Virus record (IMG/VR): IMGVR_UViG_3300025117_000032
Source of the DNA: a virus
Strand: one strand, 5' to 3'
Length of the DNA: 64,000 bases
The position numbers and the translations under genes are program-made. The notes beneath the pieces are model-generated. The model did no database searches, had not been told where the DNA came from, and worked only from the letters and a program-made list of their open reading frames with translations. Below, piece after piece: positions 7,460 to 54,111 of the stretch (the first letter of the stretch is position 1; every line of letters begins with the position of its first letter).

Positions 7460-10400
7460 TTATACCTCACATGATCCTGTTTTGCACTCTTCATTAACAA
7501 CCTTAACCAAATCTTTGTTCTTAGCATACAACTCAACATTCTCTTCTGTTGTTGGTATGGCAACCAATGGTTCATTAGCTCTTGACCCAGCACGATACAA
7601 TGTCAACCCCTTCAAGCTATCGCTGTAATTCAATATCAACTCCATCAAATTATGGTAGTCATAGTCCTCTGGGAGATTTATGGTGTTGTGCGAAACTATC
7701 CCATCTATTAGGTATGAATGAGTATCTTCAACTGAAATATCCCACACCTGTTTAACTCCAACACATTCTATTGACACCACCTTTACACAAGTAACATTGG
7801 AATCATAACCACTATACCCAAGATTTTTCAAGGATTCTTCAACCATAAAACCACCACACAAATTCATGGACCTCTTAAAATTTCTTCTCTTATACGATTC
7901 AGTGGTTCCAACCCCAATTAATTCAACCAATTTTTCTCTATCTTCTTCCTTAACAAACCTCTGAATCCATTTTCTACCTCCACTTGGTAACTTGTGGCTT
8001 TCAATTGGAATTAAATCACAACCATCGTTATAATATATGGAAATTCCATAAGACTTATTTGATTTCAACCCGGTCTTAACTTTCTTTTCCCCAAAATAAT
8101 ATTGGTATCCCAACCCGGCACAAATAGAAATGCATTTCTCAGCTATGTCTTTTGAATACCCCTCATAAATCACAAGCTTTCCGGTGTCATTAATTTTGTA
8201 TCCATCTAAGGTTAAGCCCCTCAAAAAATGTTTCTTCACAAGATTATTTGAACACATAATTTCACCTGGGACCACCTTGTCTACACAATTAGAACCAAAT
8301 TTATCTCTGAAGTGTTTAACCATTACTCTTGAATTTATGTGGTGCGACTTAACACCAGATCTTTTGTCAACCGAAGTTTTCGGTTCTACCCCAAAACACT
8401 TAACAAAAAGGTTGTCAATCAATTCACCAACAATATGATTTTTTTCAACTATACCAACAGAGTTTTTATTTGTATATCCATCTGCTAACCACATACCAAG
8501 AAATAAGGCAAAATCTTCGTCCATATGCGTTGGGTAATCTTTTACCCAATTGTTTGGTCTATCAATTTTTTTGTATTCAAACAAATTATCGTTCAACATT
8601 GGCGTTGTATTATAAAACACCCTATCTCCAATATCTAAACTTGTTACCCCCTCCCATCCGTTTGGTGTTTTAAATTTGTGGTTAAGAGAACATTTTATTT
8701 CTCTTCCGTTAGAAAACTTAATAGAATAGCATTTTTTTCTTCCTCCATTATATACACTTACAACTTTTTTCATACAGCCATTTTCATCCAAAACCATAAT
8801 CCCATCATGTGGAGTGGTAAATGTATCTTTTGGAATGTTCTTTGTTTTTGCTATATCTTCTATTTTTATAGTGCCGAAATTTGTATTAATTAGCGTTCCT
8901 TCGATGACACATTTGCTTATTGCCTGATCAACATAATCCTGAATGGCTGCTTGAACCGCAATGTGTTCCTCTGGGGTTACATCATAAGCCCCAACGATAT
9001 GCTCCCATTTGTTTCCGCTATTAACAGCCCTTGCGAACATTGGGTCAACCACAATCTCTTCTGCTATGACATTATCAACTCTATACTTTCTCCTATACAT
9101 AGGTGAGAAGATTGGTTCAATCCCGCTAGACGTTCCGGCGATCATGGATATTGTCCCGGTTGGAGCTATGGAAAGAATAACAGCATTCCTTATCCCGTAC
9201 TTCTGTATGCTCTTCAAAATTCTAGTTGGTAGCTTCTTCACAAAGTTATTGTCTATGTATTTCTCATAGTTAAACTCTGGAAAAGACCCCTTGGTTTTTG
9301 CTGTATCTATACTTGCCTTGAATGCTTCGTTGCGTATGGTTGTGAACAACCTCTCTATGAACTCCAAAGACTCTTCCGATCCATATCTATACCCAAGCTT
9401 GATTAGCAAATGGTGAAGACCCATGACACCTAGACCTATTCTCCTAGACCTCTCTGCTACGATCTTTGTCTCTGGAGTTGGATAAACGTTCATGGTTAGT
9501 ACATTGTCCAACATCCTCACGGCAATCCCGATCACCTTTTCCAACAAAGACCAATTCACATCATCCGTGACTTCATCATACATCAACCCAAGGTTGATGC
9601 TTCCCAAGTTGCAGTTTCCATCATCGGGAAGCAAGGCTTCTGTACAATTTCTTGTTAACACCATACTATATTTGTTGTTTCCATTTTTATCAACTGTTGG
9701 ATTACCAATGCAGAAAAAATTATGGTGTTTTAGTACATTCCCGCAATATACATCTTCAACACCTATTTTTTCAACAGACACAACCCTATGGTTGTTTAAA
9801 CCATTTAAGTCTATATGATGAACACACTCATCTGGTCCAATTTTAACACCAGTTCTCAATTCTACTTGGATATTGTGCTCTGTTCTTCTATTACCACTAT
9901 GGGAAATCCAATTATAATATTGGGATTTTGGTTTATTCCAAAGTTTCTGTTTCCACATTGTCATTGAATGTATTGAATCGTTATTTTTCAATTGTATACA
10001 AGTTTTCTCTGATCCATCTTTCATTATGAATTTGTGTTTGTCATTTACATCTAAGTATGTTCCATCGGAAAATGAAACTCTATAGATGTCATTCATTTTT
10101 CCAGTTTTCCGTATGTTTTCCATTTTTGATATTGATAGACTTCCATTGTTGTCAACACAATATACGTCAGTATCCTCACCAATTTCTGATAATTCTGAAA
10201 TCTTAATTGGATCTCTCCCATCTGCAACGGCAACCAATGTATCCCCAACTACACATGGATTGCAACTGCTATACTCTTCAAAATACTTGGTTGCAAAATT
10301 GTTCTTTATGTTATCGACAAACAGGAACCCAGGTTCACCGGACTCAACTGCATTCTTGCAAATGGTATCCCACAACTCTTTGGCTTTGATGTTTGTCAGA

Positions 10401-11182
10401 CCAACCACTTCAAAGGTATCTTCCCAATGAAGTCTAAAGAAATTTTCTGCTGTCTTCAAAGCAGTTTCTTCGGATGTGGCAACCACATAAATTTCGTCCT
10501 CAATACCCTTAGATGTTCTCTTTAGCAGATACCTATTGAACACCTGCCCCCTAAATTCAAACACCCAATCCTTGTCTGCTTTCACAGCCTCAAAAAACTT
10601 ATTGAAGTAATTCACACTAATATTGTGGTTGTTCAACTCATGCAAAGTCAACTTTACATTCAAAAACTCTTGAACATCGGGGTGTGGTATATCCAGGTTG
10701 GCTATTAGAGCCACCCTCCTGCCCCCACCCGACTTTATCTCATTACCAATGGCATCTATCTTCCTTATCTCTGAAACGACTCCTGGGGCAACCCCTTGGA
10801 CACCCTGGATAGGATCCCCCTTTGGTCTTATGTTGCTGTAGTTTGTTCCAACTCCCCCACCAAATGTAGAAATTAGATACATATCGTGCATAAGCTTGGC
10901 AATAGAGTGCCGGTTGTCCTCAACATCCTTGCAAAAGCAATTCAACAAACCACCAAGTCTTCTGCCCGACCCATACAGAACCCTTCCACCTGGAAAATAA
11001 TAACCATTTGACAAAACCCAATTAAACCTCTTTTCCCATATAACCATATCTCCATTGTGTTCTGCTTTTGATAAATGATTCGCTACCCTTCTTGCTACCT
11101 CTTCCCATGTTTTTTCTGTTGGCAATGCGTATCTTTGTGCCATTATGCTCCGTTGAAAATCACTCATCTCAAATTTATCCAT
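7460..11182 (-). CDS. nrdJ: class II (adenosylcobalamin) ribonucleotide reductase with two inteins
   Basis: PGGR, NCF, GGGVG, GEPG, NP|CTE, CNLGSINL, RRIGLGVMG, SIAPTGTIS, ISK|TINLP, KGLTLYR, C-terminal CKTGSC; no nrdB in window. Confidence 0.9.
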   Translation of the reverse strand: MDKFEMSDFQRSIMAQRYALPTEKTWEEVARRVANHLSKAEHNGDMVIWEKRFNWVLSNGYYFPGGRVLYGSGRRLGGLLNCFCKDVEDNRHSIAKLMHDMYLISTFGGGVGTNYSNIRPKGDPIQGVQGVAPGVVSEIRKIDAIGNEIKSGGGRRVALIANLDIPHPDVQEFLNVKLTLHELNNHNISVNYFNKFFEAVKADKDWVFEFRGQVFNRYLLKRTSKGIEDEIYVVATSEETALKTAENFFRLHWEDTFEVVGLTNIKAKELWDTICKNAVESGEPGFLFVDNIKNNFATKYFEEYSSCNPCVVGDTLVAVADGRDPIKISELSEIGEDTDVYCVDNNGSLSISKMENIRKTGKMNDIYRVSFSDGTYLDVNDKHKFIMKDGSEKTCIQLKNNDSIHSMTMWKQKLWNKPKSQYYNWISHSGNRRTEHNIQVELRTGVKIGPDECVHHIDLNGLNNHRVVSVEKIGVEDVYCGNVLKHHNFFCIGNPTVDKNGNNKYSMVLTRNCTEALLPDDGNCNLGSINLGLMYDEVTDDVNWSLLEKVIGIAVRMLDNVLTMNVYPTPETKIVAERSRRIGLGVMGLHHLLIKLGYRYGSEESLEFIERLFTTIRNEAFKASIDTAKTKGSFPEFNYEKYIDNNFVKKLPTRILKSIQKYGIRNAVILSIAPTGTISMIAGTSSGIEPIFSPMYRRKYRVDNVIAEEIVVDPMFARAVNSGNKWEHIVGAYDVTPEEHIAVQAAIQDYVDQAISKCVIEGTLINTNFGTIKIEDIAKTKNIPKDTFTTPHDGIMVLDENGCMKKVVSVYNGGRKKCYSIKFSNGREIKCSLNHKFKTPNGWEGVTSLDIGDRVFYNTTPMLNDNLFEYKKIDRPNNWVKDYPTHMDEDFALFLGMWLADGYTNKNSVGIVEKNHIVGELIDNLFVKCFGVEPKTSVDKRSGVKSHHINSRVMVKHFRDKFGSNCVDKVVPGEIMCSNNLVKKHFLRGLTLDGYKINDTGKLVIYEGYSKDIAEKCISICAGLGYQYYFGEKKVKTGLKSNKSYGISIYYNDGCDLIPIESHKLPSGGRKWIQRFVKEEDREKLVELIGVGTTESYKRRNFKRSMNLCGGFMVEESLKNLGYSGYDSNVTCVKVVSIECVGVKQVWDISVEDTHSYLIDGIVSHNTINLPEDYDYHNLMELILNYSDSLKGLTLYRAGSRANEPLVAIPTTEENVELYAKNKDLVKVVNEECKTGSCEV
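7685..8911 (-). mobile_element. intein 2 of RNR (409 aa, LAGLIDADG)
   Basis: CVIEGTLI...NHKF...LGMWLADG...FLRGLTLDG...VWDISV...SHN|T. Confidence 0.93.
9647..10255 (-). mobile_element. intein 1 of RNR (203 aa, degenerate HNH remnant)
   Basis: CVVGDTLV...HKF...VHHIDLNGLNN...VYCGNV..HHNF...TRN followed by catalytic Cys of NPCxE. Confidence 0.88.
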
Positions 11183-19821: not shown

Positions 19822-20754
19822 TTATAGCTCCAACATGGAAGTCAAACCCCTCCCTATTTGAATGCCAACTTCTAAGTGGTACTCTGGGTGGATATTTTCC
19901 ATGGTTCTCTTGATAACTCCTATACTGTTCTCCAATTGTGATTTGTCCACATCGAAATATATGGAGTCAAACCTATGAAAAAGGATATGGGTTTTCTTTA
20001 AACCCAATAAATCTATGGAGATTAGATCATCAATCAACAACTCTGTACCTATTGATTGTATGATATTGTTAAATATAGAGCTTTCATCCTTGGGATAAAT
20101 CTTTCTCCCATATGAGTTGACAACATACCCTGTTTTTCGGAACATCTCAATCTTGGTTTTGTTGTATGCTTCTATGTAGACCCTTAGATTTGAGAAAACA
20201 TCAAATATTGACCTAAGAGATTCCTTGTCATATTTCTTTGAATCAACCAGGGATTGACACATCCTGATAACAGATTCTTCCCTTGCGTATAGAAGCGTAG
20301 AATCGATCACCTTGGCTTCTGACCTGGGAACACCCAATGTATCGGATACAAACTTATGAATGTCCTGGGGGCAATCTGGAACGTTTAGGAGGCTTCTGAA
20401 TATGTTGTACTCATGTACCTTGTAATCAAAGACCACAATATACCCATCCTCATACCTAGATTGTATACTCTTTAGGACAATAGGGTCAGATTCATTTATT
20501 AGGTTAACATACCCCTTAACAGCAAATATCCTAAAGGTTCTTTTATCCCTTCCATAGTATTTTGATCTTATGTAGTTATTATTTTGAACTGCTTCTTGAT
20601 ATACTTTCACTAAGCTGCTTTTTTTCTTATGCTTATTAAGACAGTAATGGACATAGAGTGCATTTGTGTTTATATGCACTATACAGTTATTTAAGATGCT
20701 TTCAGCTATTAATGAGCTTATGTTCCTTTTATATGTAGATTGTACTATATTCAC
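19822..20754 (-). CDS. divergent family A DNA polymerase-like domain
   Basis: FDYKVHE (motif A-like), DIH...R.EAK....LY (motif B-like), GYVVNSYGRK, FNNIIQS, FDS (motif C-like). Confidence 0.7.
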   Translation of the reverse strand: MNIVQSTYKRNISSLIAESILNNCIVHINTNALYVHYCLNKHKKKSSLVKVYQEAVQNNNYIRSKYYGRDKRTFRIFAVKGYVNLINESDPIVLKSIQSRYEDGYIVVFDYKVHEYNIFRSLLNVPDCPQDIHKFVSDTLGVPRSEAKVIDSTLLYAREESVIRMCQSLVDSKKYDKESLRSIFDVFSNLRVYIEAYNKTKIEMFRKTGYVVNSYGRKIYPKDESSIFNNIIQSIGTELLIDDLISIDLLGLKKTHILFHRFDSIYFDVDKSQLENSIGVIKRTMENIHPEYHLEVGIQIGRGLTSMLEL

Positions 20755-20763
20755 TGTAACCCC

Positions 20764-20844
20764 TTAACTGCTTTTTAGATATTAGGTACTTTAACTGCTT
20801 TTTAGATATTAGGTACTTTAACTGCTTTTTAGATATTAGGTACT
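20764..20844. repeat. 3 x 27-bp perfect tandem repeat in AT-rich intergenic region
   Basis: TTAACTGCTTTTTAGATATTAGGTACT at 20764, 20791, 20818. Confidence 0.95.
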
Positions 20845-20912
20845 TTAAGCTACTAAGCTCTTTATAATATATAAGATAAATAAGATATTCTTTTTTTCTT
20901 CGCCGCTACGAA

Positions 20913-20941
20913 AGTATAGCAGAGAAATTAGGATTTGTAAA
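20913..20941 (-). promoter_or_regulatory. sigma70-type promoter at start of replication module
   Basis: TTTACA-17 nt-TATACT. Confidence 0.55.
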
Positions 20942-38242: not shown

Positions 38243-40123
38243 CTATCCATTTATCACTTCATAATCACTTGGGAAAGTGACTCTTATCAAACCATACTTT
38301 TTGTTATTCACAACTTTCTTTGCTGCCCTATTCATTATACCAAATTTCCAATCATACAAGGTGCTTGGATCGACAACTTTTGGTGTTGGTTGAAGGGCAA
38401 TGTATGGTGCATATATGTATCCGCAATCGTAATCATTATCCCCCAAATATCCAATGAGGCAAATATCATCTGGCAACATCGGATCTATGTAAAGATCATA
38501 TTTGCAATTCACCCTCCCAGCATAACTTATCATATAATCATCGTGTGGGTTATAATCCTTTGAGGTTGGCACAAAGTCAATGTTGTCTCTTAGAACACTC
38601 CCAACCTTTGCCGAGCAAACAATCCAATTAGCCTCGTGGTTGAAGTTTGCGCGACCTATCATAGCACTTATTTTGTTGGCTTCTATGAGCAAAGTTTGAT
38701 TCCATTCCTCTTGGGTTACTCTAGCACTTGAGGCTTCAACTGGAATAACAGTTCCATCAATCCTAGTTACGGCAGACCTTGGGCTATAGTGCCAACTGGT
38801 TTGATAAGGTGCAATGTTTATCAGGTCCGATATTACTTGTCTGTCTATCTCCAAAGCTATCTCTGTTGCCATGAGGTTAGCCACTTCATCAACCATAGAG
38901 ATACCAAAGAACGATTTCAAATTTTGGTCTAGCTCTTCTGTCCAACTTGCCTTGAGCTTTCTTGTGTTACAAGAGATTGAGGTTCCGGTTATGTTCAATT
39001 GGACTTGTTGCATTCCAGACACAGCTTCATTAGAAGCATATGTATTGTATCTTGTGTAGGCTGTCCGATTGCTTCCAGACAACCATGTTTCATCTGTTGT
39101 TGCTATTAAACTCAATCGGTTGTTTGCAAACAAATTTTGACCCCATGTTTGTGGAGATACGGCATATGGTAAAGCTTCATAACCTAACAATTCTAATTCA
39201 GTGACAAGAGTTCCAATTGCCCCACTGAAATTGAATCTAAAGTAAGTGTTCCCCGTTGATTCTGTTGCCAAGTTGTACCTGTATGTTGTGTTTGCAACAA
39301 GAGATAATCCAGAATGATAATCTAGTTGTGACCAAGATGTTGAGTCTGTTGAACCACACAACTCTATTAATGTTGGTGGCAAAGCTAAACTACTTTTAAG
39401 TGTGTATGATGTAATATTTGGGGTGAGAGAAGTAAATTGAAACTGACACCATCCAGTTTGGTTTGCCGTGCTTACAATAAGATAGTTGGTTCCCGCGTCC
39501 ACGTTATCATCGAATGTCATCCCAGTAAACAGACTTGTTGGGGAGGATGTTACAATTCCATTTCGTCCACTCAATCCAGTTTGGTCATACTCCAGGAACA
39601 CTTGAAGTGAAGAAAGACTACCCACCCCACCCGAATAGGGAACAGTAAAAGAAGCACCTGACAAATATTGTGCTGCCGTTATGGCAGTCATAGCCCCATT
39701 TACGGAAGTTGCCTCACCAAGAGAGATATCATAATTTGAATGACCGCTTCTTGCTTCAATTAAAGAAATGTAGGCAGAGCTTCCCTTTGCTGTTTCTATT
39801 TTTGGATCATAGTAAAACACCATAGCTGTTGGATACAGTATCGGTTGGATTGAAACAAGCTTCCTAGAAATTCCTGTTGGTATGATTCTCCTAACGATTG
39901 GCATCATTGGAAATTGCGATTGAGTTCCACCATCTAAATCTCCACCAAGATCGGTGGTTGAGTTTACTTCATTCAAAAATCTTCTTTGGTTTTCCAATAG
40001 GATTGCAGACTTGCTATCCACTCCTGGAAATACTTTGTTCCATTCTGCTTGGATATCTTTGGAAACCCCTCTTAGGCTAGACAGTTCTGCTTTATACTTC
40101 TCACTGATACTAACTTCGATCAT
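38243..40123 (-). CDS. second major-capsid-family (gp23-like) protein with inserted beta-sandwich domain
   Basis: LLENQ, P.VRR, TRKLKA.WT.EL.Q, EI..EIDR, GYIYAPYI; ~100-aa insertion. Confidence 0.88.
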   Translation of the reverse strand: MIEVSISEKYKAELSSLRGVSKDIQAEWNKVFPGVDSKSAILLENQRRFLNEVNSTTDLGGDLDGGTQSQFPMMPIVRRIIPTGISRKLVSIQPILYPTAMVFYYDPKIETAKGSSAYISLIEARSGHSNYDISLGEATSVNGAMTAITAAQYLSGASFTVPYSGGVGSLSSLQVFLEYDQTGLSGRNGIVTSSPTSLFTGMTFDDNVDAGTNYLIVSTANQTGWCQFQFTSLTPNITSYTLKSSLALPPTLIELCGSTDSTSWSQLDYHSGLSLVANTTYRYNLATESTGNTYFRFNFSGAIGTLVTELELLGYEALPYAVSPQTWGQNLFANNRLSLIATTDETWLSGSNRTAYTRYNTYASNEAVSGMQQVQLNITGTSISCNTRKLKASWTEELDQNLKSFFGISMVDEVANLMATEIALEIDRQVISDLINIAPYQTSWHYSPRSAVTRIDGTVIPVEASSARVTQEEWNQTLLIEANKISAMIGRANFNHEANWIVCSAKVGSVLRDNIDFVPTSKDYNPHDDYMISYAGRVNCKYDLYIDPMLPDDICLIGYLGDNDYDCGYIYAPYIALQPTPKVVDPSTLYDWKFGIMNRAAKKVVNNKKYGLIRVTFPSDYEVING

Positions 40124-40186
40124 GTAAACTCCTTAAGATTGTTCATTGTACATCTTTAAATATTACAAGCAGGATACAAAAATTAA

Positions 40187-41500
40187 CTAAAATGACATTA
40201 TGAATTTGGCAGATCCACAATTCCACACCTTCCAATACCCAAGTTCTTTCATTATTTCTGATTCAGATTTGTTTTTATCATACCCACTATCCACCAGCTT
40301 TGACTTTCTACACTGGATTCTATGTTTCCTTACCATTTCTTTGCTGACATACCAATAATTTGGTGGAGAAATATGGGAAAGTGCGAACCCATTTTTTGCG
40401 TAAACATTATTTGCAGTATCGAAATTCCAATCCAAATCCATAAAGGTTGTTATCTCTTTTGGGTTTATTGATTTTATGAAATATTTTAGCATTTTTGAAA
40501 AGCCACCCACCACTCTTTTTTTAGAACAATATCTCAATATTTCAAATTTTCCTTCTTCTGGGTTGGAACCAAGAATCTTTCTTTGTTTTCCTATTGTTAA
40601 AACAGAAACAATTTCTCCATCGCATAGGAGTTTCACGCTGTATTCAAAACTTATATTTCCCTGGGTATGGTATTTTCCCACAAATTTCACAACCTCCTGT
40701 TTATTGCCAAACTTGACTACACAATTTCTTGCATATATCTTGTCATTGTTGGGTATCATATTAAACAATCTTTTCATAATTGCTTCCCTTCTACTAACCC
40801 AAGCATCTTCGAATATGTGGACTAATCTCACCCCATTTTCAGCACACAATTTTGATTTATTGAAGTGATATCCCTTATTTTTGCCAGCACTTTCTGAATG
40901 CCAATATATGCCATTGAATTCTACCCCGATTTTATGGTCCGGTAAATATAAGTCTATTTCCTTTCTGGACAACCAATCTGGTTTGTACCTTTCAACAATA
41001 TTATTAATACCACTACTTTCCAATATTGATTTTATTTCGTGTTCATAAGAAGATTGGTGTGTTTTTCCATAACAATCTATCGAACAATACGTTACATTAT
41101 ATCTGTTATCTCTACTATTTTTTACATAGAATTCCTCTCCGCATTTTTTGCATATTTTCTTTATGGTATTTGATTTTGACTTAAGTTTATTTCCACAAGC
41201 TGGCGAACAACACTTCTGTGTTTTATGGTGTCTGGTTTTGAATTCATTTCCACAAATTTTACAACAAACTATCTTCATACAAGATTCATTGTTTGCTTTT
41301 CTGGCACATTTTGGTGAGCAATATTTTTGGTTTGATTTTCCTAAAAATGGTTTGTTACAAATTGTGCATATTTTCTCTTGTTTTATTTGTGTTGCCTTCA
41401 CATTGTTTTTTGATAAACAAACCTTTGAGCAAAATTTGCTTGTCTTTTTCTTTGTCTCAAAATCTATCCCACACATTTTACACCCGTGCTTGTATACCAT
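40187..41500 (-). CDS. Hef-like putative homing endonuclease with Zn-finger repeats
   Basis: CxxC..F...FCS..C repeats; EIDLY....GVEFNGIYWHS; IYARNC; GGFSKML; likely ATG 41500. Confidence 0.8.
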   Translation of the reverse strand: MVYKHGCKMCGIDFETKKKTSKFCSKVCLSKNNVKATQIKQEKICTICNKPFLGKSNQKYCSPKCARKANNESCMKIVCCKICGNEFKTRHHKTQKCCSPACGNKLKSKSNTIKKICKKCGEEFYVKNSRDNRYNVTYCSIDCYGKTHQSSYEHEIKSILESSGINNIVERYKPDWLSRKEIDLYLPDHKIGVEFNGIYWHSESAGKNKGYHFNKSKLCAENGVRLVHIFEDAWVSRREAIMKRLFNMIPNNDKIYARNCVVKFGNKQEVVKFVGKYHTQGNISFEYSVKLLCDGEIVSVLTIGKQRKILGSNPEEGKFEILRYCSKKRVVGGFSKMLKYFIKSINPKEITTFMDLDWNFDTANNVYAKNGFALSHISPPNYWYVSKEMVRKHRIQCRKSKLVDSGYDKNKSESEIMKELGYWKVWNCGSAKFIMSF

Positions 41501-41556
41501 AATTTTCGCCTTTCTGAACGATATTACACCATCAAGTATAATTATAGCACAAAGAC

Positions 41557-41587
41557 AAAAAAGAGGAAACAATTTCTTGTTTCCTCT
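41557..41587 (-). terminator. intrinsic terminator after major capsid gene
   Basis: AGAGGAAACAA-GAAA-TTGTTTCCTCT followed by TTTT. Confidence 0.8.
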
Positions 41588-41606
41588 CTTAGCTAAAAAC
41601 TACTGA

Positions 41607-43139
41607 TTAGAAGTTCGAAACATTGGTGCTTGAACCATTAATCAAAGTGTAGCTTGTTGGGAAGATAACCCTAACCATACCGTAATACTTGTTGTTAACA
41701 ACTTTCTTAGCGTATCTGGTCATAATACCCTTCCTTGGTGTGAAGTCATCTGGATCCAGGACTACAGGAGTTAGCTGGAATGGAATGTATGGAGCATACA
41801 CATATCCAGTATCCATGAAGTTGCTTCCCTTGTGCCCAATCAAACAAATTTGAGCAGGTAGGTAAGGATCCTTGTAAACGGTGTACCTTGAAGATAGGGT
41901 TCCCATCTTTTCGATACCCATGTTGTATTGCTCGGTGTCGGCTTCGGAAACGGCGTGGAATTTCTCGATGTCTTCCATAACCGATCCAACCTCAGTGGAG
42001 CAAACAATCCAGTTTGCACCACCGCGCAACATTGCCTTGTGGATTTGGGCGCTAACCTTGTTAACCTGTGTCAACAGAGTTTGGTTCCATTCCTTTTGGG
42101 TAACATATGCGCTTGCAGGATCGCCAGGAATGGTTGTACCATCTGTCCTGGTTATCGAAGCTGTTCTATCGTAAGACCAGCTTGTTTGGTAAGGAGCAAC
42201 ACGGATCAAGTCACGAATGATTTCGCGGTCGATTTCTGCTGCAAGTTCCTCACTCAACAAAGCAGTCAATTCAGCTTCGGCGTCCAAGCTGTGGTATGCA
42301 GCCAAGTCCTGTGCCAATTCTGGGGTCCAGTGAGCTTTCATCTTTCTGCTGGTAACACTTACAGTTGTAGAAGTTACGATCAACTTCACTTCTGCCATGT
42401 TAGAGCTACCTTCTAAATCTCCATACACTGTGTATGAAGTTCTAGCAGAGTTAGCTACGCAATCAACGTAGGCTACGTTAGTACCAGTATAACCGCTATC
42501 ATTAACCTTAACCAAGATTTGGTTGTTAGCAAACAACCCAGCGGTCCAGGTTTGTGGATCAATAGCAAAGTGAGTAACACCTGTTACAGTTGCACCAATA
42601 CCAGAGATAACTTCAATTTGCAATGAAGCAAGAGATTCCTCGCTACCACTATAAGTTAAAGTTACATAGTTATCTCCACCAACATTTGCCCATGCACCAT
42701 AGGTTGTGGCCCCTGTAGCAAATGAATAGTTGTGCCCACCATTGTCATAGTGTGCATCATACACGCTTGCATAGGTTCCTCTGGCACCTGTAGTAACTGT
42801 CTCCACTTGATGATCAAGATAGAATAACAATCCACTAGGTAGGTTCAATGGTTGAACCGATACAATATCGTTTGCCAATAGGCGAGAGAAAACTCTACGC
42901 ACCATTGGGAACACAATGATATCAAACCCAGCTATGTTAGAAGTTGAGTTGTCCGCTTCCTTCAACAAAGCACCAGCTTGGTTTTCCAATAGTTGGGCCA
43001 TGTTGGTTTTCTTTTGGGCTTCTAGTCCCTCAAGAAGACCTGTCTTTTCCCATCTATTAACAACCTTCATTCTTTGTTCTTTCAGTTGATTGGTTTGGAT
43101 GTTCCCCACCAACCCTGATTTTAATAGTTTCATTCCCAT
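41607..43139 (-). CDS. major capsid protein (T4 gp23-like)
   Basis: W.KTGLLEG, LLENQ, VSVQP, SRKMKA.WTPELAQDL.AYH.LDAEAEL, YAPYIP, PRKGIMTRY. Confidence 0.96.
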   Translation of the reverse strand: MGMKLLKSGLVGNIQTNQLKEQRMKVVNRWEKTGLLEGLEAQKKTNMAQLLENQAGALLKEADNSTSNIAGFDIIVFPMVRRVFSRLLANDIVSVQPLNLPSGLLFYLDHQVETVTTGARGTYASVYDAHYDNGGHNYSFATGATTYGAWANVGGDNYVTLTYSGSEESLASLQIEVISGIGATVTGVTHFAIDPQTWTAGLFANNQILVKVNDSGYTGTNVAYVDCVANSARTSYTVYGDLEGSSNMAEVKLIVTSTTVSVTSRKMKAHWTPELAQDLAAYHSLDAEAELTALLSEELAAEIDREIIRDLIRVAPYQTSWSYDRTASITRTDGTTIPGDPASAYVTQKEWNQTLLTQVNKVSAQIHKAMLRGGANWIVCSTEVGSVMEDIEKFHAVSEADTEQYNMGIEKMGTLSSRYTVYKDPYLPAQICLIGHKGSNFMDTGYVYAPYIPFQLTPVVLDPDDFTPRKGIMTRYAKKVVNNKYYGMVRVIFPTSYTLINGSSTNVSNF

Positions 43140-44308: not shown

Positions 44309-45988
44309 TTACTTAAAGTATGAATCTTTCAATATTCCATGAAGGATATTGCGTAGTCCATTGTATCTGTCCGTAACATTTTTTCCAACACTCTCTACTA
44401 AATATGCGCCTGGAGTGGATGGCGACGAAACTGCGTCAAAAGCAATGAGTTCGAAGTCATCTTGAACCACATTTATTTCAGCCTCTTGCTGTAGTGATCC
44501 AATTCCCCTAGACGATATTCCGATCTTCACACCCTGCTGAATAAGGTTTTTTAGAATCTGCCCTGGGGGTGTGTTCAAAATTTCCAGTGATCCCCTAACC
44601 TCTTCATCTCGCATATAAATATCAGTTACTAAGTGTGAAACATTTTTTAATTCAATTATTGCCGAGTTTCCTGTAAGAAATGCTTTGCCATTTTCCTTCA
44701 TATAAAAGTTTCCATTCTTAACTGTTAGACAATATATATTTCCCTTGTGTTCTACTTTTTCTATCTTTAAGAACCTTTCATCCAAATATATACCATTTGT
44801 TGTGGATATGTTTAACTGATATAGTGGTCGTTTATTTTTGGCCTCTATTAGATGATCAGCAAACATATAATCATCCTTGGTTATTATTTCTTGCCAATTT
44901 CCAGACCCACCAATTTTGATAAGACATTCGTGTAAATCCTCAACAAGCCTTTTCGAGGTGGAAAACAAATTTTGTCTAATTCCATGTTGGTGTGTTTGTT
45001 TTCTTCCATCTCCCATGATAAACCAATCAATCAATTCAGATAGATAAATTGGATCAAGTTGTTTGATATCACTAGGGATATATTTTTCATGGCACTTTCC
45101 CAATATATCCAAATATTTTGCCAATCTTATATCTTGGATTGAGAATACTATTTTATCATTCCCCTTATTGTATTCTTTTATTTCAATTTGGAATTTGCTT
45201 AACATTTCTCTGATCAAATCAGCCTTAACACCAGATTTTTGTGTGATTACTGATAAATAAGATCCACCCCCTATGCGGGTGTGGCCCTCTGCGAGCCAAA
45301 TTCCTAGGAATTGAACAAATGTCATTGTGTCTATTTTAAGTGGTTCCTCAACATTATTCGTAAATCTATTTGAATATTTTTCTTTTGACACACCTGGAAT
45401 TTCAATGAAATCTGGGTTGTTACCAAACCAATCAAAATTAGATTTTAATATTTTATGTTTATTGTATTTGCCTCTATTGTTGTGTATTTCCTCAATTGTG
45501 ACATACTCCCTTTTTCCATACCTTGCTTCTAGTAACAATTTGTGGGTTGGGGTAAACGAAGAATCTATTCCTCTGCCTCTTATTTTATAAGCGTTTCCGC
45601 TATATGGTTCATCGATAATTCTTTCTATTTCATTTAATTCTAACCTGTTATTTTCATTGATTGCATATATCTTCTCCCCTAGTTTTAACTCAGAAAATGG
45701 TTTCCAACCAAATTCTGACAATACATCAAAGTTTTTTGATATATTGCAATCTGGGTGATCTAATTCCCCCATGGCCCTACGATCTTTTACTATGTGTGAA
45801 TACTTCTTAACCTCTCTGGCTAAGATCTCTTTTGGGTAGACCCTACCATTGTGGTTTTTCACGTTGGCTTTTTGTAGAAGCTTGTCTTTGATTATTACTG
45901 GTTTGCTTGGGTTGTCTGCAATCTCTTGTAAAATGTCAGCACCAACATCTAGTTCAAACCATTCTGTTATGAGTAGTTTTTGGTTCAT
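44309..45988 (-). CDS. prohead protease (T4 gp21-like) with intein
   Basis: N.NGRVYP, GELDHP, SH, GISSRGIGS, FDAVSSPSTPGA. Confidence 0.93.
   Translation of the reverse strand: MNQKLLITEWFELDVGADILQEIADNPSKPVIIKDKLLQKANVKNHNGRVYPKEILAREVKKYSHIVKDRRAMGELDHPDCNISKNFDVLSEFGWKPFSELKLGEKIYAINENNRLELNEIERIIDEPYSGNAYKIRGRGIDSSFTPTHKLLLEARYGKREYVTIEEIHNNRGKYNKHKILKSNFDWFGNNPDFIEIPGVSKEKYSNRFTNNVEEPLKIDTMTFVQFLGIWLAEGHTRIGGGSYLSVITQKSGVKADLIREMLSKFQIEIKEYNKGNDKIVFSIQDIRLAKYLDILGKCHEKYIPSDIKQLDPIYLSELIDWFIMGDGRKQTHQHGIRQNLFSTSKRLVEDLHECLIKIGGSGNWQEIITKDDYMFADHLIEAKNKRPLYQLNISTTNGIYLDERFLKIEKVEHKGNIYCLTVKNGNFYMKENGKAFLTGNSAIIELKNVSHLVTDIYMRDEEVRGSLEILNTPPGQILKNLIQQGVKIGISSRGIGSLQQEAEINVVQDDFELIAFDAVSSPSTPGAYLVESVGKNVTDRYNGLRNILHGILKDSYFK
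44666..45748 (-). mobile_element. intein in prohead protease (361 aa, LAGLIDADG)
   Basis: CNISK...GWK...TPTHK...LGIWLAEG...MGDG...IYCLTV.NGNF...TGN|S. Confidence 0.9.
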
Positions 45989-50007: not shown

Positions 50008-53000
50008 TCATCCTTTGCGTTTTCTATCAATCAACCAAGTCAAACTTTCTCTTTCTCCCCTTGGACCAATCTGTACCCAAGGATTGGGGTTTGCCCTAGA
50101 ATTCATGAACCCCCTATTTGTAGGAAGAGAATTCTCTGCTAGATTACTTTCCCCTTGCATAGCTTTCAAGGCAGCAACCACAGCTTCCCTTCCACTTGAT
50201 CTGTCTTTAAGGTGAGTAGACTTAACAAACAATCCAATCCCCCCAGCTATACACAAGTCATCATTATACCCTGGCATAGCTTGAGGCTTTCCATTTATCC
50301 AAACCAAAGTCCTAAGCTCTGAAATTGTCCTGGTAGATCTTATCTTAAAGCTCCCAACTCTAATACCCTCTTCCAATGCAGAAATAATAAGTGGCCTAGA
50401 AGTATTCGTTGTCTGAAACCCAGGTATAGCAGAGACATCATGTTTGGTTGGGTGATCATTCATCTTTTTCATTTTCTCTTTGCTGTACATTCCCTTTTGT
50501 GAATAGAATAAGTTCTTATAATCAAGGTCAACTAGCTTAAGACAAGTTGCATATCCAATGCTATTAGCTTCAGGAACAATCAAAGCATTGTTATAGAGAG
50601 TTCCAACATCATACAACAACCCAGCATATTCATCTGGAGGAAGTCTATGCCTGTACTCTGCAACTTGCTCATCACTAGAATTGATAACATGAAAAGCAGA
50701 GTAATCAGAAGAATCTCCCCTAGCTACGTCCGCACATATTAAATACTCTTCGCCTTCAATGGGGTCTTCCCATACCCAAAGATTCTTATAGAACATACTG
50801 AAAGGAACATCTTCCTTTTTATGGTACTGCAACACTTCAAAGCCTTCATATAGAGGTTTTCTACATTCTTTCTCTGCTTCAAGTATATACTTGTTCTCAA
50901 TAACCATATCCCCAGAACCAAGAAAGTCCATATCCAACTCTTGAGCGATAAGCCTGTCAGAAGCTAACTGTCTCTTTTGGTTTTCATACCAAGATGAGGT
51001 AGGATGAAAACTAGATTCAGCACAAATCTCACAAAGCACTTCACCATTGAACATAGATCCTGTCAATTGTCTATTACCACAACTGGCACAAATCCACTCC
51101 AAGTTTTCAGAGTATAATGGATGTTCCGTCCAATGAATGGTTATCGGATTAAAGTCAGATTCTTTGTTGACCGCAAGCGTCCATTGCTTGTGATACCAAT
51201 TTCCGACTCCCTTGGGGGTTTGGTGTCCAAGTATTGAGTTATATATTACCGAGTGATCCCAAAATGATATCATGTTGATATCACTTTCTGAAATTTCAGA
51301 AGAAATTTTGTGTGAGTTTTTGGTGCTAGGCAATGAAAAATCAACTGTAGGGTTTGAGCTAACTGTAATGCTACGAATAGGTTCCCACTTGACGTTTGGT
51401 GAGAGTATCTTATCTAGTTCAATTGTTAGTTTGTTAGGAATGGTTGTGTTTTGTAGGCAAATATTTTTTAGCTTCAATAGGTTTTGGCGTGAGGTATGGT
51501 GGGTTTTGTACAAACTTTTTTTATTTAGTACCCCATTAATATTCAAACCCCACTTCTTAATCAGCGTCCACGTTCCAAAAGGTAATAAGTCAAACAAACA
51601 CTTGCAGTAATAAACTCCGTTGGGTATTACATCATGTGAGCTTGACTTTACAATATTACTTTTTGTGAAGCTCTCACTTGGGTTTTTTGAGCTAAGTGTT
51701 TGTGTAATATTACTTTGGTTAGCTGCCCGGCATTTTTTTTCTAATTGATTCTCATTTTCAACCTCAAAATTTTCTGGCACGTTTCTTGCTATAGCAAGTT
51801 CTGTGCCAAAACCGGGCTGCACAGAATTTTGTTTGGCACGATTCTTGCTAGACCCACACTCAAATTGGTTTTGACTAGCATTTTCATCTGTAAGCAATTT
51901 GTCGGGCAGCCCATAGTTGGCACGATTCTTGCTAAAGGTTTGATTTATAATGCTCTCTTTTTGTGAAATTGTGAACCCAGTTGTTAATTTTTTATCATAC
52001 AAAACGTCAAAACAATTCATTTTACCCCTTATGGGTTTTTGATTATTTTGATCTATAGTGTGTTTTTCCCCGGAAATTTCAGTTTTGGTTGTTAAAAGTT
52101 TAACAAGATTTTGGGAAGCAATTTTCGTTCCAAGTTTTTGGTTGTCTGCGTCCCTGCATGTTAAAGTTTTAACATCTCCTGATTCTAAATCATCAAAATT
52201 TTCGTCCCTAGCAAGAAGCGTGCCAGGCAAAATTGGCAATAGGTGGAGTTTACCGATACCTTCAAGTTCTGTGCCTGTTAATTTTTTAACATGCGGAGCA
52301 GCAGCCAACAAAACATTATGATTCTCAAATTCGCCATCACAGTTTTTGATATTTGGTTTTATTGTATGATTTTTAACTGCAAAATTTCTGGTATGATTCT
52401 TGCTAGGGGAATTTTGTTCGATTTGGTTGGCACAGAACTTGCTATAGCAAGAATCATGCCAAGTCTGGGATGTAATTATTTGATTCTCATTTTCAATTGG
52501 TGAGCGCATCGCTTGACTTTGTAGCAAAATGCCGGGCAACTCACAAAGCATAGGAAGGACGTTTTGATTATCCTGTTTTTCCTGGGAGTTGAACCCAATC
52601 AATTCATAGAACAATTTCGATTCTGATTGATTGAGAGTTAACCTGTACTGGATGGTATCGTATTGAAAGTAGCTGTTCCTTCCATTGACTGCCCCGTACT
52701 CACTCAAGATTCCAATGTTGTCTAGGATGATTCTTATTTGATCTATTAGAACCTTTGAGGAAAGTCCTATGGACACAATCCCTCTGTCTGCTCTGGAGAA
52801 TCCTTTGCAATCAAAAATTCCGTTCACCAAGGCCCCTAGATTGCCCCCAGACAACTCCAATAGTCTTGGAGGTATGGAGCGTTGGGTGTTCTTTGTGTCT
52901 GGTTTAAAGCCCAGGTAAAGAAGGAATTCAATGAAGTTCTTTGAAGTGGTAAAAATATTGTCAGTATGGGTTTGGATGTCTACATTTTCAAGAGTAAATC

Positions 53001-54111
53001 TATCCTTCATATCCTGGGTTATAGAAACAAAACTTACATATCCCCCTATGAGTTCATTTGCCTGTTGAGAATTTATTATGCTCATTGATCCATTGGCAAT
53101 GTACACACCCAGGAGATAGGCAAGGTCTGGTGTAATCACTGTTGGAAGAAAGTTATCATGCAGGGTTGTGTTTGTGCTAAGGTCTGGTGTTAGACGAAAA
53201 TCGGTTAGTGTATCGTTATTTCCCCAGACATTCATCCCATACTGTACTGCAACGAAATCATTAACTTCTAAATCTCTCAATTGAAACCAATCGTATCTTC
53301 CAACTTTATTTGAGAAAGCCCATAGCTTATGATTCAATGAACCCTCTAGCTTTGCACTCCTAGTAGATATAATTTTAGTTTTACACACTCCATTGTTGTA
53401 AGCTATGCTGCCAGTTCTTAGTTTATCCTTGCCTAACACACCATAAGAAGCAACTGTTTGTTCACCAAGTAAGTCCAGGTTTGCATAGTCACCAATTTGC
53501 TTTATACCCCTATCCGTGTAAATGTAAGTGTCAGGTGTAACGCAAGAGATAACAATACCAGCACCACCCATTGACAATGTAGGGTAAGCTGCTGCCCACA
53601 AGTCCTCAACCTTATTCGTAGGAATGGCTGCTGCCTCATCAATAACCAATAGGGTCAATGATTCAGACCTAGCTGCATCATCTGTGGTGGCGTGAGCAAT
53701 AACCCTGGAACCATTAATGAGTTCGATTGAACCCTGGTTATCCAATAAAAGTTTTGGAACCAACCAAGTGGGAGACTTTTTCAGTATCAACTTTATCTTG
53801 CGAACAAACCCAGAAGAGTTCACTTGCTTATTTGCCACAACTGCAACCTCTGTTGCCTTATGAAAAGCCACCAACCAAGCAATGTAACCTGCTGCTATTG
53901 TTGAAATACCCAACTGTCTTGATTTTAGAATGATGTTGAATCTATGCTCTTGGAATTCTCTCAAGCAATCTTTCTGGAAATCATACAACTGAAACTTAAC
54001 GTACCCACCCTTTGGGTCTCTCACCACACCATAATTGAGTAGGTAATATTCTGGACTAGCGGAACACTTGATGATCTCTTCGGTCATCTGTTGCTTGGAT
54101 AATGCAGGCAT
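50008..54111 (-). CDS. terminase large subunit (T4 gp17-like) with 775-aa intein
   Basis: LYDFQ, KSRQLGIS, LVIDEAA, VIS|TPKG, DVARG...DYS, PEANSIG, NDDL. Confidence 0.95.
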   Translation of the reverse strand: MPALSKQQMTEEIIKCSASPEYYLLNYGVVRDPKGGYVKFQLYDFQKDCLREFQEHRFNIILKSRQLGISTIAAGYIAWLVAFHKATEVAVVANKQVNSSGFVRKIKLILKKSPTWLVPKLLLDNQGSIELINGSRVIAHATTDDAARSESLTLLVIDEAAAIPTNKVEDLWAAAYPTLSMGGAGIVISCVTPDTYIYTDRGIKQIGDYANLDLLGEQTVASYGVLGKDKLRTGSIAYNNGVCKTKIISTRSAKLEGSLNHKLWAFSNKVGRYDWFQLRDLEVNDFVAVQYGMNVWGNNDTLTDFRLTPDLSTNTTLHDNFLPTVITPDLAYLLGVYIANGSMSIINSQQANELIGGYVSFVSITQDMKDRFTLENVDIQTHTDNIFTTSKNFIEFLLYLGFKPDTKNTQRSIPPRLLELSGGNLGALVNGIFDCKGFSRADRGIVSIGLSSKVLIDQIRIILDNIGILSEYGAVNGRNSYFQYDTIQYRLTLNQSESKLFYELIGFNSQEKQDNQNVLPMLCELPGILLQSQAMRSPIENENQIITSQTWHDSCYSKFCANQIEQNSPSKNHTRNFAVKNHTIKPNIKNCDGEFENHNVLLAAAPHVKKLTGTELEGIGKLHLLPILPGTLLARDENFDDLESGDVKTLTCRDADNQKLGTKIASQNLVKLLTTKTEISGEKHTIDQNNQKPIRGKMNCFDVLYDKKLTTGFTISQKESIINQTFSKNRANYGLPDKLLTDENASQNQFECGSSKNRAKQNSVQPGFGTELAIARNVPENFEVENENQLEKKCRAANQSNITQTLSSKNPSESFTKSNIVKSSSHDVIPNGVYYCKCLFDLLPFGTWTLIKKWGLNINGVLNKKSLYKTHHTSRQNLLKLKNICLQNTTIPNKLTIELDKILSPNVKWEPIRSITVSSNPTVDFSLPSTKNSHKISSEISESDINMISFWDHSVIYNSILGHQTPKGVGNWYHKQWTLAVNKESDFNPITIHWTEHPLYSENLEWICASCGNRQLTGSMFNGEVLCEICAESSFHPTSSWYENQKRQLASDRLIAQELDMDFLGSGDMVIENKYILEAEKECRKPLYEGFEVLQYHKKEDVPFSMFYKNLWVWEDPIEGEEYLICADVARGDSSDYSAFHVINSSDEQVAEYRHRLPPDEYAGLLYDVGTLYNNALIVPEANSIGYATCLKLVDLDYKNLFYSQKGMYSKEKMKKMNDHPTKHDVSAIPGFQTTNTSRPLIISALEEGIRVGSFKIRSTRTISELRTLVWINGKPQAMPGYNDDLCIAGGIGLFVKSTHLKDRSSGREAVVAALKAMQGESNLAENSLPTNRGFMNSRANPNPWVQIGPRGERESLTWLIDRKRKG
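51220..53544 (-). mobile_element. terminase intein (LAGLIDADG, Gln-terminal) carrying a ~300-aa extra insertion
   Basis: CVTPDT...NHK...LLGVYIANG...GIFDCKG...TVDFSL...GHQ|T. Confidence 0.9.
51718..52544. promoter_or_regulatory. array of sigma54 -24/-12 sites, Rex-like palindromes and Fur-like boxes inside the intein
   Basis: 9 GG-N10-GC sites (e.g. TTGGCACGATTCTTGCT x2); TGTTAA-N4-TTAACA x3; TTGATTCTCATTTTCAA x2; terminal inverted repeats. Confidence 0.8.

What the first reader, a model, noticed from the sequence alone, without database searches (positions are those of the whole stretch)
51718..52544. Array of sigma54 promoter sites hidden in-frame inside the terminase intein: candidate host-sigma decoy system
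Seen: between the LAGLIDADG domain (IGFNSQEKQ) and the HDVIP motif, the intein carries ~300 aa of unrecognisable sequence. Its DNA holds nine GG-N10-GC sites matching YTGGCACG-N4-TTGCW with at most a few mismatches: + strand 51774, 51833, 51917, 52388, 52427; - strand 51793, 52117, 52210, 52446. Two are identical (TTGGCACGATTCTTGCT). Degenerate copies lie at 51893, 52261 and 52523. The motifs fall in different reading frames and on both strands, so repetition is at DNA level. I saw no comparable site elsewhere in the window. Established: this is the RpoN -24/-12 consensus, and sigma54 holoenzyme forms stable closed complexes until a bEBP activator remodels it. Inference: a multicopy replicating phage genome could sponge host sigma54-RNAP and dampen sigma54 regulons. 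The intein is a safe harbour because the encoded peptide is spliced out and only frame maintenance is required. Alternatives: real phage promoters, a packaging/replication-coupling site, or a captured regulatory element.
Basis: partly seen in the sequence, partly recalled or inferred. Interest (0 to 1): 0.95.

Follow-up and report, generated by a model that had tools for sequence, protein, structure and literature searches.

The report
Host-regulator docking array inside terminase intein

Summary
Observation confirmed. Nine sigma-54 boxes lie in a ~300-codon insertion that only this terminase intein carries. They far exceed synonymous-codon resampling, and 8 of the 9 best boxes of the 152-kb genome are here.

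The insert is more than a sigma-54 array. It also holds four TGT-N10-ACA palindromes, which sit at enhancer distance from sigma-54 promoters beside activator genes in Desulfobacterota. It holds two Fur-type boxes, like those before feoB and fur in that phylum. The intein's endonuclease has lost both catalytic acids.

New here is a positional rule. In other viral contigs such arrays lie just upstream of terL (12/12 and 22/23 terminase clusters). In cultured PaP1 they lie in the proven terminal repeat, four in frame in an HNH gene. This phage has free non-coding space elsewhere, so position probably matters.

Best reading (0.4): a host-protein docking hub tied to the packaging/genome-end region. 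Rivals: decoy 0.25, regulated internal or antisense promoters 0.2, relic 0.1. Binding, host and genome ends are not shown.

The scan noted sigma-54/Fur arrays before on other phage DNA. I found no paper describing them.

The parts
50008..54111 (-). T4-like terminase large subunit gene, 1367 aa, with intact ATPase and nuclease motifs
51220..53544 (-). Intein, 775 aa (Cys1 ... His-Gln / Thr+1). Hint + LAGLIDADG fold. Both endonuclease catalytic acids are lost (E to N; GDG to CKG)
51637..52572 (-). 312-codon linker holding the ~300-codon insertion. Homologues have a short linker here (median 18, at most 31 aa). No protein homologue found; pLDDT below 50
51774..51809 (.). Head-to-head pair of sigma-54 boxes (51774+, 51793-), offset 19 bp
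51833..51849 (+). Sigma-54 box, exact consensus (antisense to terL)
51917..51933 (+). Sigma-54 box identical to 51833
52117..52133 (-). Sigma-54 box, sense to terL, 1 mismatch
52210..52226 (-). Sigma-54 box, sense to terL, exact
52388..52404 (+). Sigma-54 box (2 mismatches), 96 bp downstream of the UAS-type palindrome at 52276; candidate antisense promoter
52427..52462 (.). Second head-to-head pair (52427+, 52446-), inverted copy of the first pair (35 nt, 94%)
51982..51997 (.). TGTTAA-N4-TTAACA palindrome, one mismatch (bEBP UAS-type; Rex-like)
52090..52105 (.). Perfect UAS-type palindrome
52159..52174 (.). Perfect UAS-type palindrome
52276..52291 (.). Perfect UAS-type palindrome
51745..51761 (-). 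Fur-type box
52480..52496 (-). Fur-type box, identical core to 51745 (a degenerate third copy lies near 52319)
51724..51732 (+). TGCCCGRCA motif of unknown ligand, left end of the array
51900..51908 (-). TGCCCGRCA motif, internal copy
52530..52538 (-). TGCCCGRCA motif, right end, inverted relative to 51724 (22-nt inverted repeat, 86%)

Best explanation
The insert is a position-bound docking hub for host DNA-binding proteins, kept at DNA level and hidden in a loop of a non-mobile intein. SHOWN: three motif classes are selected beyond what the protein requires; two of them match sites that the Desulfobacterota use for a PAS-AAA+-Fis activator and for Fur; the frame is kept open; arrays of this kind track terL and terminal repeats in other phages. 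INFERRED: host sigma-54 (free or as closed holoenzyme), the activator and Fur bind the array and form a mostly non-transcribing nucleoprotein patch. INFERRED, least certain: this patch marks or shields the packaging-start / genome-end DNA, for example as a landing mark for terminase or as protection or a ratchet for the entering end. The encoded peptide is a disordered passenger removed by protein splicing. The host is probably a Desulfobacterota member (about 50%).
For: Motif selection and frame maintenance: (chance of a stop-free shuffled insert about 4e-10). Only array in the genome, and no ORF with an RpoN box or GAFTGA motif. Dead endonuclease, so homing does not keep the insert: (family has E in 95 of 106 and GD in 98 motif matches). 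UAS identity: (19 of 46 GTDB hits are Desulfobacterota/deltaproteobacteria by title, 12 with a bEBP gene in the locus); PMC4641369 reports TGT...ACA half sites for EBPs. Fur identity: 18 hits vs 1 control, one before feoB and one before a fur-like gene. Position: sites upstream of terL in 12/12 clusters and 22/23 clusters in a second sample, where 78 of 117 array loci contain terL. PaP1: 7 of 13 boxes in the 1190-bp terminal repeat, four in frame in an HNH gene (4 vs mean 0.56, max 3 of 5000). Free non-coding space exists elsewhere. Spacing of 19-22 bp head-to-head and 26-29 bp in tandem is too tight for several transcribing polymerases (own knowledge). The head-to-head pattern has 0 hits in 185,579 prokaryote genomes but is present in viral and metagenome contigs.
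Against: The genome ends and pac site of this phage are unknown. The closest terminase relatives have no array: none in the 38-kb contig of L131, and none in the 236-kb and 78-kb records. So the hub is not needed for packaging in the family. The DNA upstream of terS/terL is also where many phages keep their non-coding control region, so the positional rule is confounded. The terL clusters are not fully independent, and one cluster dominates each sample. Pakpunaviruses have a second cluster about 12 kb from the end. Many arrays in near-complete linear contigs are internal. No binding data exist.
Confidence: 0.4

Rival explanations
1. Multi-factor decoy. After replication, many genome copies titrate sigma-54 holoenzyme, an activator and Fur. 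This damps sigma-54 regulons and de-represses iron uptake.
For: Mixed activator, repressor and sigma sites, in both orientations and head-to-head, inside a gene and away from gene starts. No phage RpoN or bEBP motif. Fur-type boxes are enriched near sigma-54 boxes in other phage arrays. A decoy role is suggested for intragenic sigma-54 sites in PMC4591121. Synthetic decoys work in E. coli (PMC7826281 abstract). Sigma-54 is scarce, about 100 copies per E. coli cell (own knowledge).
Against: A sponge needs no fixed position, yet arrays track terL and terminal repeats. This phage pays for a 312-codon open frame although free space exists. There is only one genome copy early in infection. Fur is abundant and there are only two good boxes.
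Confidence: 0.25
2. Regulated internal promoters. Host activator plus sigma-54 fire antisense (52388, 52427) or sense (52117, 52210, 51793) transcripts, or bound proteins block elongation. This couples terminase or head-gene expression to the host's redox and iron state.
For: UAS-to-box distances of 96, 135, 142 and 172 bp; host examples run 70-99 bp within the range searched. Some intragenic sigma-54 sites are active promoters (PMC4591121, PMC3844500). Phage YuA has a sigma-54-like promoter (10.1101/2023.10.13.562163).
Against: Four of nine boxes have no UAS upstream. The head-to-head pairs cover each other's start sites. Intragenic sigma-54 binding was not a roadblock in E. coli (PMC4591121). 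No IHF-site enrichment: 4 vs 2 expected.
Confidence: 0.2
3. Neutral relic: a captured control region or miniature inverted-repeat element that landed in a tolerant intein loop.
For: Ends show a 22-nt inverted repeat and mirror-ordered modules; RNA fold z -9.1; the insert is unique to one lineage.
Against: A non-coding fragment of this composition would be stop-free with probability about 4e-10. The boxes are near-perfect rather than decayed. There is no second copy in the genome, and I saw no target-site duplication. The same in-frame overprinting occurs in PaP1.
Confidence: 0.1
4. Iteron-like replication origin, or sites for a phage-encoded protein that only resemble host motifs.
For: Origins and pac sites inside genes are known (lambda O, P22 gene 3, P1 pacA; own knowledge). 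The TGCCCGRCA motif shows no host enrichment (3 vs 2 controls) and may bind a phage protein.
Against: The same sigma-54 consensus occurs across phages of 31-69% GC with unrelated terminases. A tandem repeat with an AT-rich flank at 20754-20928 is a better origin candidate. There is no skew switch beyond the intein itself.
Confidence: 0.05

Closest known systems
Bacterial sigma-54 (-24/-12) promoters with bEBP enhancers, e.g. the Desulfovibrio regulome (PMC4641369)
   Same: Box consensus tGGcacg / tTGCt; TGT...ACA-type UAS; one UAS-box pair at host-like spacing
   Different: Nine boxes in 0.7 kb, both strands, two head-to-head pairs (a pattern not found in 185,579 prokaryote genomes), inside a coding frame, with no gene start downstream and no cognate activator gene in cis
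Intragenic sigma-54 binding sites of E. coli and Salmonella (PMC4591121, PMC3844500)
   Same: Inside genes, mostly silent; a decoy role was proposed
   Different: Those are single scattered sites in native coding sequence; here a dedicated insertion is built from them, in a phage
Sigma-54-like promoter of Pseudomonas phage YuA (10.1101/2023.10.13.562163)
   Same: Phage DNA read by host sigma-54
   Different: One ordinary promoter with a mapped start, not an array; no Fur or UAS cluster described
Host-factor sites at packaging signals and cis-elements inside genes: IHF at lambda cos, pac in P22 gene 3 / P1 pacA, T7 RNAP pausing for terminase loading, T4 gp17-gp55 contact (own knowledge)
   Same: Cis-acting DNA in or next to terminase genes that recruits host or transcription proteins
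   Different: The ligands here are RpoN, a bEBP and Fur; the element sits in an intein; no cleavage site is known
Fur titration (FURTA; own knowledge) and synthetic decoy sites (PMC7826281)
   Same: Multicopy operators can titrate a regulator
   Different: Laboratory constructs; no natural phage example found in the papers searched
Rickettsia palindromic elements and other in-frame MITE inserts (own knowledge)
   Same: Palindromic DNA inserted in frame and translated
   Different: Single copy, about 900 bp, made of host regulator sites; no target duplication or transposase seen

Membership tests
Sigma-54 promoter | GG-N10-GC core in a TGGCAC-N5-TTGC consensus | tested here: met
   9 sites
Sigma-54 promoter | bEBP UAS about 80-150 bp upstream | tested here: inconclusive
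   Met for 52388 (96), 52427 (135), 52117 (142); 49 bp for 52210, 172 for 51793; absent for four boxes
Sigma-54 promoter | Transcription start about 12 nt downstream of the GC, dependent on RpoN | not testable with these tools
   No RNA holder listed
Sigma-54 promoter | Drives a downstream gene | tested here: not met
   All boxes lie mid-gene; five are antisense; one in-frame ATG with a weak SD at 52020
bEBP enhancer (TGT-N10-ACA type) | Palindrome found upstream of host sigma-54 promoters next to bEBP genes | tested here: met
Rex operator | 18-bp TTGTTAA-N4-TTAACAA-type palindrome | tested here: inconclusive
   52089 is a full match; the other three have 2 mismatches; PMC5886521 lists such sites. 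Rex cannot be excluded
Fur box | Motif found at iron-uptake and fur promoters | tested here: met
   One-mismatch copies directly before feoB (Pfam) and a fur-like ORF (by inspection); 18 vs 1 control; several other hits are not iron-related
Fur box | Overlaps a promoter that it represses | tested here: inconclusive
   No sigma-70 enrichment (10 vs 8.1); boxes lie 12 and 17 bp upstream of the outermost sigma-54 boxes
Intein (cis-splicing, LAGLIDADG type) | Cys1, block B His, block F Asp, terminal His-Gln with Thr+1; Hint fold | tested here: met
Active homing endonuclease | Two catalytic acidic residues | tested here: not met
   N and K in place of E and D
MITE / RPE-like element | Terminal inverted repeats | tested here: inconclusive
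   22 nt at 86%, itself made of a motif that also occurs internally
MITE / RPE-like element | Multiple genomic copies and target-site duplication | tested here: not met
   Single copy; no duplication seen
pac / terminal-repeat element | Coincides with the virion DNA end or terminase cut | not testable with these tools
   Only contigs are available; met for the analogous PaP1 cluster
Transcription-factor decoy | Titrates the factor and changes target expression | not testable with these tools
   Needs reporter or infection experiments

The most novel reading that the evidence does not exclude
Many phages, including well-studied Pakpunaviruses, use host sigma-54 closed complexes and Fur as structural, non-transcribing marks on their packaging/terminal DNA. 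The requirement is so tied to position that the sites are overprinted on whatever gene lies there, here a terminase intein that was kept and enlarged only as a carrier for cis-acting DNA.
Probability: 0.3. Interest if true: 0.9.

Novelty: new variant of a known kind. Interest (0 to 1): 0.72.

Why it matters
If true, it gives sigma-54 and Fur a role in phage DNA handling or host take-over that is not described in the papers I could search. It also shows an intein serving as a carrier for regulatory DNA after losing its mobility, a new reason for inteins to persist in phages. The question is directly testable, because the same kind of element lies in the terminal repeat of PaP1 and a related stretch is conserved in about 150 cultured Pseudomonas phage records, whose hosts have rpoN and fur mutants. 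The motif set may also serve as a host fingerprint for uncultured phages.

Tried and rejected
Folded domain explaining the motifs: rejected. No homologue was found, the motifs use three phases and two strands, and synonymous resampling does not reproduce them. The low pLDDT is weak evidence, because the alignment has no depth there.

Assembly chimera: rejected.

Insert-less strain: L138 looked 316 aa shorter, but its contig simply ends; it is identical to the window. P0077's long linker is a tandem second intein.

Other searches that gave nothing useful: blastn of the insert against cultured phages gave only chance hits. UAS close to a sigma-54 box in viral contigs: 0 hits, and the exact UAS is not enriched in other phage arrays. 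TGCCCGRCA as a host operator: no enrichment. IHF, DnaA, FNR, LexA and sigma-70 motifs: not enriched. Two apparent in-frame arrays (L184, L276) are shadow frames.

Structured RNA: the fold is strong (z -9.1) but follows from inverted reuse of the motifs, and there are no homologues for covariation; not pursued.

No RNA holder was listed. No raw reads exist, so genome ends could not be mapped. The contig-end test was mixed. Ten paper searches found no description of such arrays. I did not run a complex prediction, because the host RpoN is unknown.

Full report
Setting. The window belongs to a ~152-kb T4-like phage from groundwater metagenomes, with a terminase-portal-protease-capsid module and 26 tRNA genes in the loci scanned. 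TerL (50008-54111, minus strand) carries a 775-aa intein at 51220-53544. Its splicing residues match the family, and it folds confidently as a Hint plus LAGLIDADG intein. Both endonuclease catalytic acids are replaced, whereas the family keeps them. The intein is therefore probably no longer mobile (inference).

The observation. The nine boxes are real. Between the endonuclease and the DxIP motif, 100 measurable homologues have at most 31 residues (median 18); this protein has 322, and the one other long case is a tandem intein. The extra sequence has no protein homologue in the searches run. With the amino acids fixed, 5000 synonymous resamplings never reach the observed box counts (6 exact vs mean 0.10), and a shuffled insert would be stop-free with probability about 4e-10. 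So the DNA is under two constraints at once: motif and frame. That argues for gradual selection in place and against a captured non-coding fragment. Contigs from several runs and a JGI assembly agree with the sequence.

The whole genome. I covered it with overlapping loci (151,896 distinct 31-mers). Eight of the nine boxes with at most one mismatch lie in the insert. So do all perfect copies of the three other motifs. No ORF carries an RpoN box or a GAFTGA motif.

Three further motifs. (a) TGTTAA-N4-TTAACA, four copies. A GTDB scan for this palindrome 70-100 bp before a sigma-54 box gave 46 loci. Nineteen are Desulfobacterota or deltaproteobacteria by title, and 12 of these hold a bEBP gene, mostly divergent PAS-AAA+-Fis proteins facing hdrA-like or cytochrome operons. 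Many of these loci are orthologues. Aquificaceae glnB and nirB-like promoters also carry it. TGT...ACA half sites are common EBP motifs in Desulfovibrio (PMC4641369). A Rex operator has a similar shape (PMC5886521) and is not excluded. In the insert the copy at 52276 lies 96 bp before the box at 52388. (b) A Fur-type box, two identical copies. In 301 Desulfobacterota genomes it has 18 matches against 1 for the reversed control, including directly before feoB and a fur-like gene. Fur-type boxes are also enriched near sigma-54 boxes in other viral arrays. (c) TGCCCGRCA, three copies, ligand unknown. The order is roughly mirror-symmetric: motif c, Fur box and a head-to-head pair at each end, with the palindromes in the middle. 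The motif set points to a Desulfobacterota host; this is inference, not shown.

Comparison with other phages. One exact 18-mer from the array occurs in at least 120 IMG/VR stretches, mostly intergenic and often in arrays. The head-to-head pattern has no match in 185,579 prokaryote genomes but 5 in viral and 20 in metagenome contigs (the viral and metagenome pattern was slightly stricter). Where terL is present in the locus, the boxes lie upstream of it: 12 of 12 terminase clusters in one sample and 22 of 23 in a second, where 78 of 117 array loci contain terL. None of the 117 arrays lies in a real long gene. Preferred spacings are 19-22 bp head-to-head and 26-29 or 46-47 bp in tandem (partly shaped by my search patterns). 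From known polymerase footprints these are too tight for several productive holoenzymes (own knowledge).

Cultured examples. phiPMW has a head-to-head pair, and the stretch around it matches about 150 Pseudomonas phage records; its paper does not mention sigma-54 (PMC5587285). In PaP1, 7 of 13 boxes lie in the last 1.05 kb, inside the experimentally shown 1190-bp terminal repeat (PMC3652863). Four of them are overprinted in frame on an HNH endonuclease gene, beyond synonymous chance. This parallels the window: boxes written into a homing-endonuclease-type frame at a packaging-related position.

Mechanism. A sponge could sit anywhere, and this genome has about 17 gaps of 200 bp or more without an ORF on the coding strand (a rough count, some hold tRNAs). 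Keeping 300 extra codons open in an essential gene suggests that the place matters. I therefore favour a docking hub for host proteins at the packaging or end region (0.4). Precedents from my own knowledge are IHF at lambda cos, pac sites inside terminase genes and polymerase-assisted terminase loading in T7 and T4. The case is not closed. The ends of this phage are unknown. Its closest terminase relatives have no array. The region upstream of terS is also the usual control region. The decoy reading (0.25) fits the mix of factors and the blocked geometry; PMC4591121 raises it for intragenic sites. Regulated antisense or internal transcription (0.2) fits the UAS spacing, but intragenic sigma-54 binding was no roadblock in E. 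coli. These roles are not exclusive.

Novelty. Ten literature searches found only the single sigma-54-like promoter of YuA, intragenic binding surveys and synthetic decoys. Earlier unchecked notes of this scan report sigma-54 and Fur arrays in non-coding regions of other phages and another motif array inside inteins; I confirmed the spread of the arrays independently. What this window adds is the in-frame intein setting, host counterparts for three motif classes, the dead endonuclease and the terL / terminal-repeat rule. I class it as a new variant of host-factor cis-elements in phage DNA; it would be a new kind if the structural role is shown.

Noticed in passing
window 20754-20928: Intergenic tandem repeat (about 27-28 bp, three full copies) followed by an AT-rich stretch; candidate replication origin.
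   Followed up: no
window 44309-45988 and 7460-11182: Two more inteins: in the prohead protease (LAGLIDADG acids look intact) and in the ribonucleotide reductase. Neither carries the motif array.
   Followed up: partly
window 38243-43139: Two gp23-family capsid genes (510 and 626 aa) flank a 461-aa unknown ORF.
   Followed up: no
L163 8334-17475; L161 13348-17355: Cluster of 26 tRNA genes with an HNH gene inside, outside the window.
   Followed up: no
L358 1380-1982 (PaP1 gp157): Annotated as hypothetical; it is an HNH endonuclease carrying four in-frame sigma-54 boxes inside the terminal repeat.
   Followed up: yes
L354 8300-8670 (phiPMW) and L357 1365-1552 (PAK_P1): Conserved head-to-head sigma-54 pair at the start of the early cassette region, with Fur-like sequence nearby in phiPMW; not annotated in either record.
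   Followed up: partly
L008 178-5700: Viral contig with 27 sigma-54-like boxes upstream of terS/terL, mixed with many GAAC-N4-GTTC repeats that resemble Gram-positive LexA boxes.
   Followed up: no
L286-L327 (Desulfobacterales loci): A conserved PAS-domain bEBP with repeated TGTTAA-N4-TTAACA sites drives hdrA-like and cytochrome operons from sigma-54 promoters; I did not find this regulon described.
   Followed up: partly
L067, L073, L088, L101, L195, L253: Viral control regions where several Fur-type boxes are interleaved with sigma-54 boxes; L026 and L129 carry TGTCAA-N4-TTGACA palindromes instead.
   Followed up: partly
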